This document shows positions 7,080-47,940 of a stretch of 64,000 bases of DNA, one piece after another (position 1 is the stretch's first letter; each line of letters opens with the position of its first letter). Source of the stretch: Escherichia coli (GTDB taxonomy: Bacteria > Pseudomonadota > Gammaproteobacteria > Enterobacterales > Enterobacteriaceae). The notes under the pieces are model-generated. The model was not told where the DNA came from. It saw only the letters and a list, made by a program, of their open reading frames with translations, and did not search any database. The stretch lies in the NCBI RefSeq assembly GCF_024700885.2, contig NZ_CP117016.1; one strand, given 5' to 3'. A program made the position numbers and the translations under genes.

Positions 7080-7964
7080 TCAGATTTTCAATGTATCAAT
7101 GACCATCCGCAGGGCGGGGGAGACGTTGCGATGAGGGTAATAGAGAAACAATCCCTCCATTCGCAGGCTGTAACGCTGCAACACCCTGATAAGCTTACCG
7201 TGTTCTAAATCATCCGCGACCAGTTCAACAGGAACATAGGCCAATCCGAGGCCCAGCCGGGCTGCTTCTGCTTCCATATAGCTGTCGGATAAGGCCCATT
7301 GCCCTTCAGGGCGATGAGTGATTTTTTTATCATCCTGATTGAGTTCCCACTGGTATACGCTGCCGTCGGCAAACTGATAGGCGATACAGGGATGCGCCTT
7401 TAAATCCGCCGGGGTTTGCGGAAAACCATAGCGACGAAAATGTTCCGGAGTCCCCACAATTGCCATCTCCATATCGGGCGTGATGCGTACCGCGACCATA
7501 CCCTGGCCGACTTCAGGCCCCAGGCGGACACCTGCATCGAATCTTTCCTCGATGATATCGACGAACCGGCTCTCATTTATCAGTTCAAGCCGGATATCAG
7601 GATATCTCTGTTTAAATACCGCCAGCTTTGGCAGCAGGCATTTATCAATCGCGTGCTGGCTGGCATTGATACGCACCGTGCCGGAGGGCGTCTCTCGATA
7701 GTGCGCCAGCGTGGCAAGCCCAAGATCTAACATTTCAAATCCAGATGCCGTCTTCTGGTAGAGCTGCTCGCCTGCTTGTGTCAGCGACAGTTTACGCGTG
7801 GTGCGCACTAGCAGCTGGACGCCCAGCCTTTCTTCAAGCTCGCGAACAGAACGGCTGACTCCTGACTGAGCAAGACCCAGCCGCTGAGCCGCTGCGGTAA
7901 AGCTGCCTTCCCGCACCACCTGCATAAACAGGTACAGCTCGTTGTAGTTCTCCCTTTTCGCCAT
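7080..7964 (-). CDS. LysR-family transcriptional regulator (294 aa)
   Basis: N-terminal HTH FMQVVREGSFTAAAQRLGLAQSGVSRSV; C-terminal LysR substrate-binding domain; divergent from hydrolase gene. Confidence 0.85.
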   Translation of the reverse strand: MAKRENYNELYLFMQVVREGSFTAAAQRLGLAQSGVSRSVRELEERLGVQLLVRTTRKLSLTQAGEQLYQKTASGFEMLDLGLATLAHYRETPSGTVRINASQHAIDKCLLPKLAVFKQRYPDIRLELINESRFVDIIEERFDAGVRLGPEVGQGMVAVRITPDMEMAIVGTPEHFRRYGFPQTPADLKAHPCIAYQFADGSVYQWELNQDDKKITHRPEGQWALSDSYMEAEAARLGLGLAYVPVELVADDLEHGKLIRVLQRYSLRMEGLFLYYPHRNVSPALRMVIDTLKI

Positions 7965-8150
7965 TGAAACATCCCCCCTTCATGCCGGCAATCTCCGCAT
8001 TAATTTATAACAATATGGTATTAATCTTAGCATTAATCGCCCCCTAATCAGCACTAATTCTGCTCACTATAATGACCCCATCAAAGTAAAGCACCGCAGC
8101 GTTGTCCGTCGGAAACCTGTATCTCTCTGTTGTTTTTTATGGGGATTTTT

Positions 8151-9279
8151 ATGAAAGCCTTCACCCGCACGCTAAAAACCGCGATGCCGACCATGCTGCT
8201 TTTCGCATCATTAAGTGGAGTCACGACAATGAGTTATGCTGATTCAACCAATCCTAATGCCCCTGTGTCCATGACAGATAAATGGGATAAAACGTTCGCC
8301 GAGAGCCAGAAAGTCGATCACCGTAAAGTCTCGTTCCCGAACCGATATGGCATCACCTTAGTGGGCGATCTTTACCTGCCTAAAGACCGTGGCGATCGCA
8401 AGCTGGCGGCGATTGCGGTCAGTGGGCCATTTGGCGCGGTGAAAGAGCAATCCAGCGGCTTGTATGCGCAGACGCTGGCGGAACGAGGGTTTGTTACCCT
8501 GGCGTTCGATCCTTCTTACACCGGGGAAAGCGGCGGCTATCCGCGAAACGTCGCCTCACCGGATATCAACACTGAAGATTTCAGCGCGGCGGTGGATTTC
8601 TTAGGGCTGCAAAAAGAGGTAGATCGCAACCGTATCGGGCTGCTCGGTATTTGTGGCTGGGGCGGCATGGCGCTGAACGACGTGGCGATGGATACCCGCG
8701 TTAAAGCGGTAGCTACCAGCGTGATGTATGACATGAGCCGGGCGATGGGTCATGGTGTGGGGGATGGCAAAGACCGTTATTCTACCGCCGACCGTCGTGC
8801 CGTTCTGCAATATCTGAATGAACAGCGCTGGAAGGATGCGCAGAGCGGAACGTTCGCTCACGGTGGTCATGATATTAATGTCGACAGCAACGGCAAGGTC
8901 AGTGCGGGCGAGCGCATTCTGCCAGAAACGCTGCCGGCAAATCCTCATCCGGTACTGAAAGAGTTCTTTGACTACTATCGCATGCCGCGCGGCTTCCACG
9001 AACGTTCCGTTAACTCTACCGGGGCGTGGACGGCAACGATGCCGCTGGAATATGCCGCTGTTGAGCTACGCCAGTGAAATCACCATCCCGACGCTGATTG
9101 TGACCGGTGAGAAAGCGCATTCACGCTATTTTGCTGAAGATGCTTACAAGGTGGTTGGCAGTAACGACAAAGAGCTGGTGGTGGTACCAGGGGCAAATCA
9201 CGTGGACCTGTACGATAACGTGGCCGGAAAAATACCTTTCGCGAAGTTCGAACAATTTTTCCAGACCAAACTGAAATAA
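8151..9279 (+). pseudogene. Alpha/beta hydrolase (dienelactone hydrolase-like), secreted; disrupted by frameshift from a 13-bp tandem duplication
   Basis: Frame 0 ORF (8130/8151-9077) and frame +1 ORF (to 9279) together make one hydrolase with signal peptide and C-terminal GANH His motif. ATGCCGCTG occurs twice (9039-9047, 9052-9060) separated by GAAT; removing 13 bp restores one 371-aa frame. Paralog of 28049-28969. Confidence 0.65.
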
Positions 9280-9354
9280 AACCTCTCCTGAATTGATGCA
9301 AAGCCACCGGCCATAGGCTGGTGGCTTTTATCCTGATCTTTGTGAAATTTCACT

Positions 9355-10548
9355 ATGTCGACACTAAGCCAAACACTATCACCTCATCATCAGCGCGCAT
9401 ACTGGGGCGGTATTTTTGCCATGACCCTGTGCGTGTTTGTGCTGATTGCTTCTGAATTTATGCCCGTCAGCCTGCTCACGCCGATTACCCGCGATTTAGG
9501 CGTGACGGAGGGGCTGGCAGGGCAGGGGATTGCTATCTCCGGCGCGCTGGCGGTTCTGACCAGCCTGACGCTTTCAACGCTAGCTGGAAAGATGAATCGT
9601 AAGTTCCTGCTGCTGGGGATGACGGTTCTGATGGCCGTATCGGGGCTTATTATTGCGCTGGCTTCCAGTTATCTGATGTATATGGTCGGTCGTGCGATGA
9701 TTGGTGTGGCTATTGGCGGATTCTGGTCGATGTCAGCGGCAACGGCGATTCGTCTGGTGCCGCAGCATCAGGTCACGCGTGCGCTGGCAATTTTCAACGC
9801 CGGTAATGCGCTGGCGACGGTCGTGGCCGCACCGCTGGGAAGCTATCTGGGGGCTACGGTCGGATGGCGAGGCGCTTTCTTGTGCCTGGTGCCCATCGCG
9901 GTTGTCGCCTTTATCTGGCAGTGCATCAGCCTGCCAAGCATGGATGCGAATAAAAGCCACACTTCATGTGGCGCGGTATTCCGCTTATTTAGCCGCCGCA
10001 TGGTTGTGGTCGGCATGATAGCCTGCTGCCTGTTTTTCATGGGGCAGTTTGCACTATTCACCTATGTGCGCCCGTTTCTGGAGTCGGTGACACGGGTTAA
10101 TTCCTTAGGCTTGTCGTTGATTTTGCTGATTATCGGCGTGGCCGGTTTTATTGGCACGCTGGTTGTTTCGGCATTTCTCAACAGAAAATTCTACCCCACG
10201 CTGATGGCCATACCCGGACTGATGGCCGTCATTGCTATCGGTCTGATGCTGACCGGGCATCACGTCTGGACGGTCTCGCTGCTGTTAGGACTCTGGGGCA
10301 TGCTGGCCACCGCCGCGCCAACCGGATGGTGGACATGGATTGCGCGTACGTTGCCTGACAACGCCGAAGCCGGAGGCGGGCTCATGGTCGCGGTGATTCA
10401 GCTCTCCATCGCCCTTGGATCAACAGCAGGAGGCATCGTATTTGACCGCCTTGGCTGGCAGAGCACGTTTGCTATGAGTAGCGTGCTGCTCCTTTGCGCT
10501 GGCGTACTGACCTTTGTTACCGCACGCCAGAAGGCCGGTGCGCTTTAG
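9355..10548 (+). CDS. MFS transporter (397 aa)
   Basis: About 12 hydrophobic helices; MFS-like motif GRAMIGVAIGGFW. Confidence 0.8.
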   Translation: MSTLSQTLSPHHQRAYWGGIFAMTLCVFVLIASEFMPVSLLTPITRDLGVTEGLAGQGIAISGALAVLTSLTLSTLAGKMNRKFLLLGMTVLMAVSGLIIALASSYLMYMVGRAMIGVAIGGFWSMSAATAIRLVPQHQVTRALAIFNAGNALATVVAAPLGSYLGATVGWRGAFLCLVPIAVVAFIWQCISLPSMDANKSHTSCGAVFRLFSRRMVVVGMIACCLFFMGQFALFTYVRPFLESVTRVNSLGLSLILLIIGVAGFIGTLVVSAFLNRKFYPTLMAIPGLMAVIAIGLMLTGHHVWTVSLLLGLWGMLATAAPTGWWTWIARTLPDNAEAGGGLMVAVIQLSIALGSTAGGIVFDRLGWQSTFAMSSVLLLCAGVLTFVTARQKAGAL

Positions 10549-10727
10549 TCCGGCGAGGGCGCGCGTTGCTGAATAAGTTACACAAGGCGATGAGCGCCCA
10601 CTATGGGTTGGGTGCTCTTTTAAACGATTTAGGTGATTTTCTAAAACGGCTACTGCAGATTTTTCTCTTAATTTATGGGTATTTCCCCCGGAGGCGAGAA
10701 AGCGCTCTCCACGCCCGGCCGCAAGGA

Positions 10728-24305: not shown

Positions 24306-25228
24306 TTACAGGTGCATTCAGTTTCCTTAGTAAACCGGAGGTAAATAAGATACGTAGTACATATCAATAAAGGTTAAACGAGATTAAGTTTAATTATTTT
24401 CGATTGGGCTTAAATTTATGTTTTTTTCCCGATGAGTGTCAATATGTGAACGGAAAAGGAATTCAATGGTTAAGTCAATATTTAGAAAAACTGAAAATAT
24501 TGCTTTTTTGATAAGAAGAAAAAGACATTTAGTTTCATAAGGTTATTGGCAATATAACGTTCATTTCTTACTTGCATTTTATATTGGTCAGGAACTTTGC
24601 CCTGAAGTGTTAGGAATAGTCTTAATGCGCTGTGTGATGGACTAGTAAAAAAACAAGTTTTAAGGGTAAGGGATAGAATATAAAACTATTATGAGCTGTC
24701 ATTGAAGATGATTTGCCAATCAGTAAGATATTTTAATGGATTAACATGCCGCACAAAATGGTTATAGGTGTTCATTACAATAAGTGATGGAAAATTGAAC
24801 GGGTATAAGTACGTCATCTGTTCGGTAAGTCCCCCAAGAGCCAAATTAAGTGAAGTTAAACGAAGGCTGCCAGCTGTCACAGGAACGATGGCCTCTTTGT
24901 CAGGGCACTGCATTCAGTCATCTGTGCGCATTACTCTAACTGGCACTCGAACGTCAGCGACGGGGTTACCGGTGGATCAGGCTGTTCCTGTGGCGTAAAC
25001 GTTTTTATGTTAGTACCAACAGATTTACCACATTTATCATCTTAACAGTTTGAGTGAAAATGCAGGCTGCGCCGCAAAGGGAGGAGACTGATGGCGTGTT
25101 CAGTCTAAAAGAGGGTTGATGCCAGCATACAGGGGCGAAGCTGGTCAACACGTCAACATTAATATAATGGAATATTCGGAGAGAAACGTCAGGCAGTTGA
25201 CCTTAAATGAACAGGAAGATACATCCCC

Positions 25229-25268
25229 AGGAAAATTAATGCTGGTGTAATAAATACACCAACATTAA
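25229..25268 (-). terminator. Intrinsic terminator of the rpmE2-rpmJ2 operon
   Basis: 14-bp stem TTAATGCTGGTGTA / TACACCAACATTAA (one G-U) then, on the minus strand, TTTTCC. Confidence 0.6.
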
Positions 25269-25319
25269 TCCGGTCTGATTATTAATCAGACAAATATCGT
25301 TAATTCGTCGAATTTTAAA

Positions 25320-25754: not shown

Positions 25755-26087
25755 CAAAGATACATGCTCATCCGGATCATTTCAACACCCAATCCCTGTG
25801 ACTATTTGTAGGATGTGGAATTTCCGCAACGGAGAAGTCTGGTATTGTTAGCAGCCATTGGCGACGCTCTCATAAACGCCTGGATGAGTGATTGATGATG
25901 GTTTCGCTGAGAGTATGAATTTTTCGAGAATGGAGGCTATCTCCACTTTACTGGCCGATGATTTATCGCAGTTTGATTGATTACCTGACAGCGTGTATTC
26001 CTCTCCCACGGATATAATAATTACTTACAAAAAAGGGAGAGGATGCATATTTTAAATATCACTGCAGTGAACAGTTTATTGCCGTTA

Positions 26088-26189
26088 TTAATAGAAATGG
26101 AGAAATAAATAGGCGTATTCTACAATTGCGACAAAAACAACGATATTAATCAGTTTATGACTGATTTGCTGTACTTTATTCTCTTTCAT
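26088..26189 (-). CDS. ykgR: Small membrane protein YkgR, 33 aa
   Basis: Hand translation MKENKVQQISHKLINIVVFVAIVEYAYLFLHFY; below track cutoff. Confidence 0.7.
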   Translation of the reverse strand: MKENKVQQISHKLINIVVFVAIVEYAYLFLHFY

Positions 26190-28048: not shown

Positions 28049-28969
28049 TTACAAATGTGTTTTATAAAAAGGAATTAATTTATCGAGTGCCTGTTTCACA
28101 GGTTCTGGCTTATCATACAGGTCGTAATGTGAATAACCTTCAACCACGACCAGCTCTTTATGTTTTGAGGCAGCGCGGCCAATAATTTCGCAGCCGTCAC
28201 GGTAGGCACCAAATGCGCCCACTCTATCGCCCACCACAACCATTATTGGTTGAGTTAACAGGACTTCTGCAAGATGAAATGCATCCCAACCCACGGCAAC
28301 AGTCTGATGTGAGAATAGCGAACGATTTACCCCATTAGGTGCACAGCCTCGTGGCGAACGATAATATTCTGTGGCTTCAAAAAGGTCTATTTCTGTTAAT
28401 CCCGCTTCAAGAGCTGCATCCGGAGAAGAGGGGAGTAAATCATCTACGCGAAGTTTTGCGCCGTTAGCTTCGTCTGTTCTTTGTTGCGCCATTGCTTCGA
28501 GTGCTCCGATAGGATTAAACGCTGTAAATCCCTCACGCATAAGACGCCCGTAGTTTGCACCCGTGACAGTACCAATAGCTTTAATTCGACGTTCTGTCAT
28601 TGCGGCATTAATGGCATATCCACCTCCACCACAAATACCCAGTACACCAATACGCCCGGCATCAACGTAAGGTAAGGTGGTAAGGTAATCAACGACAATG
28701 CTGAAGTCTTTTACTCGCATTGTTGGATCTTCCAGATAACGCGGTTCCCCACCGCTGCTTCCCTGAAAACTGGCATCAAAAGCAATGACGATAAAGCCAG
28801 CTTTTGCCAGGGCGGCACCATACACACTACCCGATGTCTGTTCTTTGCAGCTTCCAATTGGATGGGCGCTGATAATGGCAGGATACTTTTTTTCACTATT
28901 AAAATCGTCAGGGAAATAGATATCAGCAGCTATATCCCAGTAAGTGTGTTTTATCGAAACAGTTTTCAT
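28049..28969 (-). CDS. Alpha/beta hydrolase (dienelactone hydrolase-like), cytoplasmic paralog (306 aa)
   Basis: Shares GVLGICGGGGYAINAA and C-terminal VVVEGYSHYDLYD with the disrupted gene at 8151-9279. Confidence 0.8.
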   Translation of the reverse strand: MKTVSIKHTYWDIAADIYFPDDFNSEKKYPAIISAHPIGSCKEQTSGSVYGAALAKAGFIVIAFDASFQGSSGGEPRYLEDPTMRVKDFSIVVDYLTTLPYVDAGRIGVLGICGGGGYAINAAMTERRIKAIGTVTGANYGRLMREGFTAFNPIGALEAMAQQRTDEANGAKLRVDDLLPSSPDAALEAGLTEIDLFEATEYYRSPRGCAPNGVNRSLFSHQTVAVGWDAFHLAEVLLTQPIMVVVGDRVGAFGAYRDGCEIIGRAASKHKELVVVEGYSHYDLYDKPEPVKQALDKLIPFYKTHL

Positions 28970-29125
28970 TTCAAGCTCCGGGGATTTGCCTAAACAGATT
29001 TAAATATCATTTCTATTATCCGCAACTGGCATTCGTGTTCATATCGAGAACGGCGTAATAGTATGACTTGTATTGGTTATCATCAATGGTCTAATATCTA
29101 TCACAGTGTTAAGTTAAGGTTTACA

Positions 29126-30052
29126 ATGATGAAAATAGAGCCTTCAATTTTGCCTTCTCTTGCCTGGTTTGCGCATATTGTTCGTGCCGGCAGTTTTTCC
29201 AGAGCCGCTTCTGAAATGGGTATTACGCGGGCCGCATTGTCCCAGAATTTAAAATCTCTTGAGGAACGTCTTAACACCAAGCTGATATACCGTACGACCC
29301 GCAATATGTCGCTTACTGAGGAAGGACTGCGTCTGTATGAAGTGCTGGTGTCGGCTTTGGGGCAAATTGATGATGCTTTGAAAGATGTTGGTGATACCCA
29401 ACTTGAACCTACAGGCCTGTTGAGAATAAATTCCTCCCGTGTTGCAGCAAGGATGCTTATTGAGCCTCATATTGGCGAGTTTCTTACTCGTTACCCCAAA
29501 ACAAAGATAGAACTCATTATGGATGACGGTTTATCTAACATTATTGCGGACGGCTGTGATGTGGGCATACGTCTTGAGCAAGGACTGGATGAGCATATGA
29601 CTGCCGTTCCTGTTTCTCCGCTTATTAAACTGGTTACTGTGGCATCGCCAGATTATTTAAAAGAACACGGTATTCCTGAAACGCCTCAGGAACTGAGTAA
29701 CCATAATTGCCTTCGGTTGCGGCATAAAAGTAGCGGTGCACTCTCTGCATGGGAGTTTTCTAATGTTGCGGGCGGGAATGAAGAGTTCGAAATAGAGGTT
29801 TCAGGTAAGTATATTTCTAATGATGACGAAAGCATGATACGAATGGCGCTGAATGGAACGGGTATCATTCAACATCTGGATTTTGCAATCGCTGAACATA
29901 TCAATGCGGGCAAGTTACAGCCGATTCTTGAGGATTGGGCCGTTTCATTTCCTGGGTTTTATATATATGTTTCATCACGGGTGAGAATGCCCTCTAAAGT
30001 TCGTGCTTTTATTGATTTTATGGTGGAGAAAAGAGTAAAAATAGAAAGTTAA
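29126..30052 (+). CDS. LysR-family transcriptional regulator (308 aa from Met-22)
   Basis: HTH FAHIVRAGSFSRAASEMGITRAALSQ; start chosen at MMKIEP with AAGG RBS (track start 29063). Confidence 0.8.
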   Translation: MMKIEPSILPSLAWFAHIVRAGSFSRAASEMGITRAALSQNLKSLEERLNTKLIYRTTRNMSLTEEGLRLYEVLVSALGQIDDALKDVGDTQLEPTGLLRINSSRVAARMLIEPHIGEFLTRYPKTKIELIMDDGLSNIIADGCDVGIRLEQGLDEHMTAVPVSPLIKLVTVASPDYLKEHGIPETPQELSNHNCLRLRHKSSGALSAWEFSNVAGGNEEFEIEVSGKYISNDDESMIRMALNGTGIIQHLDFAIAEHINAGKLQPILEDWAVSFPGFYIYVSSRVRMPSKVRAFIDFMVEKRVKIES

Positions 30053-47088: not shown

Positions 47089-47661
47089 TTACTGCCCAGA
47101 GTTTTGTTGGTATTCATCTACCATTTTTTTGACAAGGCAAAACATTACAGAAATCACAATGCTTAGAAAAAATCCCAGAATCAGGCAAATGGCAGCAGGA
47201 TATTTACTTTTTATTTCTAGTGAGCTTATAGTTACACAGCCATCACCGTTCGGATACAATGACCAGTTCCTGGTCAGGTATATCATTTTTGTATAAAGCT
47301 CACTGTTAATTGCTGAAGGTGTTTGTATCTCATCGAGAACTTGCCTGCCATTATGATATTCTGACGCATACCATTTGATAATAGACGCCTGCACGCGAGA
47401 TATTTCCGCTTCAGCAGTTGGTAAATCTCTCTTATCTCCTGACCATTCCAGCTTTATTTCTCTGTTCTTGACATCTGGGCTGGTGTGAAAAAATGTAGTA
47501 ATTCGCTGTATAACATCTTCAGTCATTGTGGTCTGACAGGCAAAGTTATTATTGCTATCACAGCTAACAAGTATGCCAGGTGTTGTCTGGTTTATTTTTA
47601 GACTGTAACTCACTTTTATATTATCTTTATTGATATACAGAAACAACAGCACCATTGCCAT
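47089..47661 (-). CDS. ykgH: YkgH membrane/periplasmic protein; N-terminal segment appears separated by a 1-nt frameshift (see findings)
   Basis: 190-aa ORF begins mid-TM-helix (MAMVLLFLY). Upstream 24-codon ORF (47673-47744) with ATG encodes MNEQIKQDINLIEILK and joins in frame if one T is added to the T5 run at 47696-47700. Confidence 0.6.
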   Translation of the reverse strand: MAMVLLFLYINKDNIKVSYSLKINQTTPGILVSCDSNNNFACQTTMTEDVIQRITTFFHTSPDVKNREIKLEWSGDKRDLPTAEAEISRVQASIIKWYASEYHNGRQVLDEIQTPSAINSELYTKMIYLTRNWSLYPNGDGCVTISSLEIKSKYPAAICLILGFFLSIVISVMFCLVKKMVDEYQQNSGQ

Positions 47662-47940
47662 ACAGATAGCTATAATAAAAAGGATAACACGAATCTTTTT
47701 AAAATCTCAATCAGATTGATATCCTGTTTGATTTGTTCATTCATAATATATCCAGAAAATGAAATCTGTCGCAGATAATATTGTATTAATAGTCTGTATC
47801 AGGAATGTTCGGGTTAAATATCAGCGAAAAACCAGCATCATGAATACTGGATATGAAGCATGAGAGTTACCTCAATGTTCTATATAACGATTCGGTCCCC
47901 ATACCTGGAACGGTAACTCTCAATCTGATAGGTTCCTGAG

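What the first reader, a model, noticed from the sequence alone, without database searches (positions are those of the whole stretch)
9039..9060. 13-bp tandem duplication frameshifts an alpha/beta hydrolase gene
ATGCCGCTG-GAAT-ATGCCGCTG: the second copy shifts the reading frame, so the catalytic C-terminus (GANH) is only encoded in frame +1. Deleting 13 bp restores a single 371-aa ORF. This is either a recent inactivating mutation or an assembly artefact.
Basis: seen in the sequence. Interest (0 to 1): 0.45.

Follow-up and report, generated by a model that had tools for sequence, protein, structure and literature searches.

The report
Eight-base deletion breaks a hydrolase gene
An accessory E. 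coli hydrolase gene is inactivated in this strain by a real 8-base deletion shared with a small lineage, not by a 13-base duplication or an assembly error, which is ordinary gene decay already flagged in the public annotation.

Summary
The 22 bases at 9039-9060 read as described (ATGCCGCTG-GAAT-ATGCCGCTG), and the hydrolase gene is frameshifted there. The proposed cause is wrong.

- **Not a duplication.** Intact orthologs carry both ATGCCGCTG copies, 21 bp apart and in frame: ATGCCGCTG-TCATTTAT-GAAT-ATGCCGCTG, encoding MPLSFMNMPL. The window lacks the 8 bases TCATTTAT. That pulls two pre-existing copies to a 13-bp spacing.
- **Rare allele.** The window is exactly E. coli MLI114 (NZ_CP117013.1). 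Of the 912 complete genomes with the gene, only MLI114 matches across the site without a gap. Twenty-one genomes are identical over 4.5 kb apart from one 8-bp gap.
- **Not an artefact.** The exact 308-aa truncated product is indexed in 42 blocks of unrelated Logan and ENA assemblies. Four fetched contigs carry the identical junction. One has a different upstream island and one has a SNP.
- **Consequence.** The protein belongs to the PA2218/YcjY group of alpha/beta hydrolases. The truncation removes 79 native residues, including the GANH histidine. Intact alleles show dN/dS of about 0.16.

NCBI's PGAP annotation pipeline (RefSeq) already marks the gene "frameshifted". Low interest.

The parts
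8151..9279 (+). The whole frameshifted alpha/beta-hydrolase pseudogene. NCBI's PGAP pipeline annotates it from 8229 to 9279 as NL414_RS20535, 'frameshifted'.
   Evidence: The window is an exact match to MLI114 NZ_CP117013.1. The restored protein matches PA2218 (PDB 2HDW) at E 9e-125 and YcjY (PDB 5XB6) at 4e-43.
8151..9077 (+). Truncated ORF: 299 native residues plus 9 aberrant residues (EYAAVELRQ) and a stop, giving a 308-aa product.
   Evidence: The exact product (P0003) is found in Logan and ENA assemblies.
8151..8240 (+). Putative Sec signal peptide, MKAFTRTLKTAMPTMLLFASLSGVTTMSYA. It has basic residues at the N-terminus, a hydrophobic core and an S-Y-A cleavage-type motif.
   Evidence: Read from the sequence. 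This is an inference; no signal-peptide predictor was available. The N-terminus is retained in the 378-aa Citrobacter homologs.
8652..8654 (+). Codon for Cys168 in the GICGWGG motif, the presumed nucleophile.
   Evidence: The residue aligns with Cys in PA2218 (GICGWGG) and YcjY (GICAGAG). The catalytic role is inferred.
9039..9047 (+). First ATGCCGCTG copy (Met297-Pro-Leu299). It is ancestral.
9047..9048 (+). Deletion junction. Intact alleles carry TCATTTAT between these two bases (codons Ser300, Phe301 and two bases of Met302).
   Evidence: Alignment A1. Inserting TCATTTAT here restores the 378-aa protein. The placement is unambiguous and there is no flanking microhomology (read from the sequence).
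9052..9060 (+). Second ATGCCGCTG copy (Met304-Pro-Leu306 of the intact protein). It is ancestral and now lies in the +1 frame.
9052..9279 (+). Residual 75-aa ORF in the +1 frame holding the native C-terminus: strand IPTLIVTGEKAH and the GANH histidine.
   Evidence: (P0016). Gene callers list it as a separate 75-aa gene.
9199..9201 (+). Codon for His353 (intact numbering) in GANHVDLYD, the presumed catalytic histidine. It is out of frame with the N-terminal part.
   Evidence: The motif is conserved in PA2218 (GASHVDLYD) and YcjY (GANHMDLYD).
9309..9334 (+). Terminator-like hairpin followed by a T run after the hydrolase stop codon.
   Evidence: This is a consensus scan only.
7080..7964 (-). Divergently transcribed LysR-family regulator of the cassette. 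It is intact (294 aa).
9421..10548 (+). MFS transporter downstream. It is intact (375 aa as called by PGAP).

Best explanation
The site is a real 8-bp deletion (TCATTTAT) inside an accessory gene. The deletion is confined to one lineage.

**The gene.** It encodes a probably periplasmic alpha/beta hydrolase of the PA2218/YcjY group, with a cysteine at the nucleophile position.

**How the repeat pattern arose.** The deletion sits between two pre-existing ATGCCGCTG (Met-Pro-Leu) codon triplets of the conserved motif MPLSFMNMPL. It brought them from a 21-bp to a 13-bp spacing, which mimics a duplication.

**Effect on the protein.**
- The reading frame shifts after Leu299.
- Nine wrong residues are added and translation stops.
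- The 308-aa product lacks the last 79 native residues. These include the strand IPTLIVTGE and the GANH histidine.
- The allele is therefore expected to be a null, that is, a pseudogene. This step is inferred from the alpha/beta-hydrolase fold and was not assayed.

**Origin.** The deletion arose once, on a haplotype that is otherwise identical to intact alleles. It is carried by a small clade that includes MLI114.
For: **Shown**
1. The window equals MLI114 chromosome NZ_CP117013.1 4047569-4111568, reverse complement, base for base. RefSeq labels the gene 'frameshifted'.
2. Alignment with intact alleles shows one gap of 8 columns, TCATTTAT, with both 9-mers present in the intact genes. Adding these 8 bases rebuilds the 378-aa protein.
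3. Of the 912 complete genomes with the gene, only the MLI114 record matches the 121-bp junction query without a gap. Another 910 records fall in the 90-95% identity band, and all other listed rows span 129 bp.
4. Twenty-one genomes score as 4501 identical bases plus one 8-bp gap over 4.5 kb.
5. The exact truncated product and the exact 75-aa C-terminal ORF are in the 15-billion-protein collection, on 25 and 26 contigs. They are indexed in 42 blocks.
6. Contigs from DRR481270, SRR30129151, ERZ28646433 and SRR35176401 all carry the junction. One has a different upstream island (CbeA/CbtA genes instead of the retron) and one has a SNP, so they are different strains.
7. MLI114 was assembled with Trycycler, medaka and Polypolish, using both Nanopore and Illumina reads (PMC10198576).
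8. Family placement: PDB 2HDW at E 9e-125 and 5XB6 at 4e-43. Pfam PETase scores 33.4 bits against a cut-off of 28.
9. MPLSFMNMPLL is identical in the intact E. coli, Citrobacter and Serratia homologs sampled. PA2218 has PLSFMNMP.
10. dN/dS among intact alleles is 0.15-0.17, from small counts.

**Inferred**
- Loss of activity.
- Periplasmic location.
- The catalytic roles of Cys168 and His353.
Against: - No reads of MLI114 itself were inspected. The allele is real in other strains, but its presence in this isolate rests on the published polished assembly.
- The molecular cause of the deletion is unexplained. There is no flanking microhomology, and no hairpin beyond chance (z -0.5).
- Loss of function was not measured.
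- Only MLI114 among 5,426 complete genomes has the allele. Its frequency is therefore known only from short-read and metagenome assemblies.
Confidence: 0.93

Rival explanations
1. A 13-bp tandem duplication (ATGCCGCTGGAAT copied) inserted a second ATGCCGCTG and shifted the frame.
For: Two exact 9-mers lie 13 bp apart. Deleting 13 bp gives an open 371-aa frame.
Against: Intact orthologs already have both 9-mers and are 8 bp longer, not 13 bp shorter. Only 9 of the 13 positions repeat, and Tandem Repeats Finder finds nothing. The 371-aa 'repair' would lack SFMNMPL, which is identical in all intact homologs sampled.
Confidence: 0.01
2. An assembly or polishing artefact of the MLI114 genome. On this reading the real strain has the intact gene.
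For: MLI114 is the only complete genome of 912 with the allele. The window is that same assembly, so it cannot confirm itself. The close relative MLI121 is not in the searchable collection.
Against: The identical junction and the exact truncated protein appear in independent Logan and ENA assemblies of other runs, including different strains. The assembly pipeline combined a consensus of 20 long-read assemblies with Illumina polishing. An 8-bp loss outside any homopolymer is not a typical Nanopore error; this last point rests on general knowledge.
Confidence: 0.03
3. The gene is still functional. Either a +1 ribosomal frameshift near 9048-9075 joins the frames, or the 308-aa and 75-aa products reassemble as a two-piece enzyme.
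For: The +1 frame stays open from 8968 and starts with the ATG of the second repeat copy at 9052, overlapping the upstream stop by 26 bases. Gene callers list both ORFs.
Against: The intact single frame is the state in every other complete genome that has the gene, so the split is derived and rare. No known +1 shift motif and no well-spaced Shine-Dalgarno sequence precedes 9052 (read from the sequence). Only the N-terminal piece has the putative signal peptide, so the two pieces would lie in different compartments (inference). Any joined product would still lack conserved residues Ser300-Met302.
Confidence: 0.02
4. A reversible, phase-variable switch at a contingency locus.
For: Short repeats flank the frameshift site.
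Against: There is no simple-sequence tract. The lost 8 bases are not a repeat unit and cannot be regenerated by slippage. Carriers show one fixed junction.
Confidence: 0.01

Closest known systems
Pseudomonas aeruginosa PA2218 (PDB 2HDW, a structural-genomics 'hypothetical protein')
   Same: Full-length similarity: E 9e-125 over residues 23-375. It shares GICGWGG, PLSFMNMP, GE(K/R)AHSRYF and GA(N/S)HVDLYD.
   Different: PA2218 is intact and has no assigned substrate. The window's copy is truncated after residue 299.
E. coli YcjY (PDB 5XB6), an uncharacterised paralogue-like alpha/beta hydrolase
   Same: It matches in two stretches, E 4e-43. It has Cys at the nucleophile position (GICAGAG) and the GANHMDLYD histidine motif.
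   Different: YcjY is shorter (306 aa) and aligns only from residue 58 of this protein. It lacks the MPLSFMNMPL motif. It is a different locus.
Strain-specific frameshift pseudogenes in E. coli accessory genes, flagged 'frameshifted' by NCBI's PGAP pipeline
   Same: A small indel, a premature stop, intact orthologs in related strains, and an existing RefSeq annotation as frameshifted.
   Different: Nothing of substance. The only peculiarity is that the deletion brings two ancestral 9-mers together and so imitates a duplication.
Dienelactone hydrolase family (Pfam PF01738), Cys-His-Asp alpha/beta hydrolases
   Same: A cysteine at the nucleophile elbow, and a weak local match around it: residues 139-188, 18.7 bits.
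   Different: The score is below the Pfam cut-off of 21. The protein is larger, with a long insertion at roughly 200-290. The acid residue was not identified.

Membership tests
Alpha/beta-hydrolase fold, PA2218/YcjY group | Significant full-length sequence similarity to solved members | tested here: met
   2HDW at E 9e-125 and 5XB6 at E 4e-43. Pfam PETase scores 33.4 against a cut-off of 28, and Hydrolase_4 scores 27.3 against 27. The test used the restored 378-aa sequence.
Alpha/beta-hydrolase fold, PA2218/YcjY group | Nucleophile-elbow motif with the nucleophile before the histidine | tested here: met
   GICGWGG at 166-172, with Cys168 aligned to Cys in PA2218 and YcjY. GANH lies at 350-353. 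Catalysis was not tested.
Alpha/beta-hydrolase fold, PA2218/YcjY group | One continuous reading frame that encodes both the nucleophile and the histidine (a functional member) | tested here: not met
   The frame breaks after codon 299. His353 is read only in the +1 frame.
Dienelactone hydrolase (PF01738) | Score above the Pfam gathering threshold | tested here: not met
   18.7 bits against a cut-off of 21, over a local stretch only.
UilS quorum-quenching AHL lactonase (NF047920) | Score above the NCBIfam equivalog cut-off | tested here: not met
   62.1 bits against a cut-off of 400.
Tandem duplication | Two complete head-to-tail copies of the unit, with a single copy in the ancestral allele | tested here: not met
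   Only 9 of the 13 positions repeat. Tandem Repeats Finder finds nothing. Ancestral alleles have both copies and are 8 bp longer.
Slipped-strand deletion between direct repeats | The deleted segment is bounded by microhomology, so its placement is ambiguous | tested here: not met
   Shifting the 8-bp gap by one base either way does not reproduce CTGGAAT (read from alignment A1). Slippage between the two 9-mers would remove 21 bp, not 8.
Programmed ribosomal frameshift | The split frame is conserved across orthologs and a shift-prone motif is present | tested here: not met
   The split occurs in 1 of 912 complete genomes. No known shift motif is visible in the sequence.
Assembly artefact | The variant is absent from independent data | tested here: not met
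   The junction is present in L006-L009, which come from four unrelated runs.

The most novel reading that the evidence does not exclude
The deletion may be more than neutral decay. Loss of this periplasmic hydrolase could be favoured in, or at least mark, a spreading E. coli clade. The allele is seen in assemblies from Mali, in a run with a DDBJ (DRR) accession, in other runs and in a metagenome, and beside two different neighbouring islands.

Alternatively, the overlapping 308-aa and 75-aa ORFs might be co-expressed as a split enzyme.

Neither reading is excluded by the data, and neither is supported beyond the allele's persistence.
Probability: 0.05. Interest if true: 0.3.

Novelty: already known. 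Interest (0 to 1): 0.07.

Why it matters
The biological importance is small. One accessory gene of unknown substrate is dead in one lineage.

Two practical points follow:
- A short direct repeat next to a frameshift does not show a duplication. Comparison with orthologs reversed the direction of the event, from a 13-bp gain to an 8-bp loss.
- The 8-bp deletion is a clean, single-origin marker. It could be used to trace the clade that includes the ESBL-positive (extended-spectrum beta-lactamase-producing) isolate MLI114.

Tried and rejected
- **Tandem Repeats Finder** on 8900-9200 at minimum score 30 found nothing.
- **Hairpin-mediated deletion.** DNA folds of the intact and deleted sites are no better than shuffles, z -0.5 and -0.8. 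Rejected as an explanation.
- **Microhomology at the deletion borders.** None was found by inspection of alignment A1.
- **The sister isolate MLI121.** It differs from MLI114 by 14 core-genome MLST alleles. I guessed from the order of the paper's accession list that its chromosome is CP117016. That accession is not in the collection, so the closest relative could not be checked.
- **Literature.** Searches for PA2218 and YcjY gave no functional characterisation in the held library. The substrate stays unknown.
- **Heavy searches not run.** I did not run homolog searches or structure prediction. The 2HDW and 5XB6 matches already place the protein, and the finding is a simple lesion.
- **Promoter scan.** No convincing sigma-70 site was found for the hydrolase. 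This was uninformative.

Full report
**Observation**

The 9-mer occurs four times in the window, twice here.

- The ORF starting at ATG 8151 (MKAFTRTL...) runs to a stop at 9075-9077 and ends ...TATMPLEYAAVELRQ.
- The +1 frame from 9049 reads NMPLLSYASEITIPTLIVTGEKAHSRYF...VVPGANHVDLYD...TKLK and stops at 9277-9279.
- Removing 13 bp does produce a single 371-aa ORF.

So the sequence, the frames and the arithmetic are all correct. The label "13-bp tandem duplication" is not. Only 9 of the 13 positions repeat, and Tandem Repeats Finder reports no array even at its lowest score.

Short repeats of this kind are common. The window holds 13 exact direct repeats of at least 9 bp at offsets of 9-30 bp, three of them 9-mers at offset 13. 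Composition-matched simulations gave about 4.6 on average, range 1-10.

**Source**

The window is base-for-base identical to the reverse complement of E. coli MLI114 chromosome NZ_CP117013.1, positions 4047569-4111568. MLI114 is an ESBL-positive (extended-spectrum beta-lactamase-producing) stool isolate from Mali. NCBI's PGAP annotation pipeline already annotates the gene (NL414_RS20535) as "alpha/beta hydrolase, frameshifted".

**What actually happened**

A 1.2-kb query covering the gene matches 912 of 5,426 complete E. coli genomes. Nearly all matches span 1,209 bases against the query's 1,201, so the orthologs are 8 bp longer, not 13 bp shorter.

Aligning the window with intact alleles shows a single gap (alignment A1):
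- Intact genes read ...ACG ATG CCG CTG TCA TTT ATG AAT ATG CCG CTG TTG..., encoding T-M-P-L-S-F-M-N-M-P-L-L.
- The window lacks TCATTTAT.

Both ATGCCGCTG copies are therefore ancestral. They are two in-frame Met-Pro-Leu triplets 21 bp apart. They use the same codons, which to my knowledge are the commonest E. coli codons for Pro and Leu. The deletion merely brought them to a 13-bp spacing.

Re-inserting the 8 bases rebuilds the 378-aa protein of the intact alleles. The gap cannot be shifted by even one base without changing the result. There is therefore no microhomology at its borders. Slippage between the two 9-mers would have removed 21 bp, not 8. DNA folding shows no hairpin beyond chance. 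The molecular cause of the deletion remains unexplained.

**How widespread it is, and whether it is real**

- With a 121-bp query across the junction, only MLI114 among the 912 genomes matches without a gap. Another 910 records fall in the 90-95% identity band, and the other listed rows span 129 bp.
- Over 4.5 kb, 21 genomes from varied hosts score as 4,501 identical bases plus one 8-bp gap. The deletion is thus the only difference on this haplotype and must be recent.

MLI114 is the window's own source, so this comparison cannot exclude an assembly error. I therefore looked up the exact predicted products in the 15-billion-protein collection.
- The 308-aa truncated protein is present on 25 contigs and the 75-aa C-terminal ORF on 26, all from Logan and ENA assemblies.
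- The position index lists the 308-aa product in 42 blocks.
- Four contigs were fetched: DRR481270, SRR30129151, the metagenome assembly ERZ28646433, and SRR35176401. All carry the identical junction and none carries the intact form.
- One contig has a different upstream island, with CbeA/CbtA genes in place of the retron. Another differs by a SNP. These are different strains, not re-assemblies of MLI114.

The MLI114 assembly itself was a Trycycler consensus of 20 long-read assemblies, polished with medaka and with Illumina reads through Polypolish (PMC10198576). The artefact reading is effectively excluded for the allele and is very unlikely for this isolate.

The sister isolate MLI121 differs from MLI114 by 14 core-genome MLST alleles. 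It could not be examined, because the accession I guessed for its chromosome is not in the collection.

**What the gene is**

The restored protein matches Pseudomonas aeruginosa PA2218 (PDB 2HDW) over its full length at E 9e-125. It matches E. coli YcjY (PDB 5XB6) at 4e-43. Both are structurally solved but functionally uncharacterised alpha/beta hydrolases.

- Pfam gives PETase-like and Hydrolase_4 matches just above their cut-offs. The dienelactone-hydrolase match is below its cut-off.
- The best NCBIfam hit, the UilS lactonase family, is far below its cut-off at 62 bits against 400.
- The nucleophile position holds a cysteine: GICGWGG with Cys168, aligned with Cys in both PA2218 and YcjY.
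- The histidine motif GANHVDLYD (His353) is conserved in both.
- The N-terminal 30 residues look like a Sec signal peptide. This is an inference from the sequence.
- MPLSFMNMPLL is identical in the intact E. coli, Citrobacter koseri, C. braakii and Serratia marcescens homologs sampled. PA2218 has PLSFMNMP.
- dN/dS among three intact E. coli alleles is 0.15-0.17, based on 6-17 substitutions. This is consistent with a working gene elsewhere.

**Context**

The gene sits in a cassette of about 4.2 kb: a divergent LysR regulator, the hydrolase, a terminator-like hairpin, and an MFS transporter. The cassette lies between a yagP-like LysR fragment and paoD. K-12 MG1655 lacks window 6512-10672 and joins yagP almost directly to paoD. 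The cassette is accessory, present in about 17% of complete genomes.

**Consequence (inferred)**

The product keeps 299 native residues with Cys168. It loses 79, including the strand IPTLIVTGE and His353. By the standard nucleophile-acid-histidine order of the alpha/beta-hydrolase fold, it should be inactive.

- Rescue by a +1 ribosomal frameshift is unlikely. The split is derived and rare, and no shift motif is visible.
- Rescue as a two-piece enzyme is also unlikely. There is no well-placed ribosome-binding site before 9052, and only the N-terminal piece would be exported.
- The terminator-like hairpin after the gene suggests little polar effect on the transporter.

**Verdict**

It is an 8-bp loss between two ancestral 9-mers, not a 13-bp gain. 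The artefact alternative fails. This is ordinary pseudogene formation in an accessory gene and is already flagged in RefSeq.

Noticed in passing
window 1-5900: A defence and satellite island lies upstream of the cassette. By RefSeq annotation it holds a TOPRIM/DUF927 primase-like gene (1-736), a hypothetical gene, a phage polarity suppression (psu) gene (1877-2428), an ogr/Delta zinc-finger gene (2434-2706), a retron St85 effector (3530-4498), a retron St85 reverse transcriptase (4485-5417) and a RipA-family octameric membrane protein (5412-5894, minus strand). This looks like a P4-like satellite carrying a retron. One carrier of the deletion (L006) has CbeA/CbtA toxin-antitoxin genes here instead.
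   Followed up: partly
window 6138-6511 and 6800-6868: Both flanking fragments look like scars. The LysR substrate-binding-domain fragment is 96% identical to K-12 yagP. The 69-bp 'YkgR, missing N-terminus' fragment lies in a stretch (about 6746-6868) that is 91% identical to the ykgR region at window 26034-26156. K-12 lacks window 6512-10672 altogether.
   Followed up: partly
window 25060-25285 and 47089-47744: RefSeq annotates two more 'frameshifted' pseudogenes in the window: ykgL, and a hypothetical protein next to betA. I did not check whether these are private to MLI114 or common in E. coli.
   Followed up: no
window 8151-8228: PGAP starts the hydrolase at Met27 (MSYAD..., 352 aa in intact strains). 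This drops a plausible signal peptide. GenBank submitters and gene callers use the upstream ATG (378 aa), and the Citrobacter homologs keep the same N-terminus. The RefSeq start is probably too short.
   Followed up: partly
window 28049-30052: A second pair of a LysR regulator and an alpha/beta hydrolase lies about 19 kb downstream. It maps to record positions 4081517-4083520, and the hydrolase is 306 aa by the length of its annotated CDS. Its relationship to the cassette studied here was not examined.
   Followed up: no
other E. coli genomes (H24/P0014, H40, H112): Some other genomes differ at this locus. O145 RM9872 spans 1,210 bases instead of 1,209, and GenBank holds a 367-aa call for that strain. 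One genome covers only 76% of the gene, in two pieces. One has an IS150 element within the 4.5-kb region. None of these was examined further.
   Followed up: no
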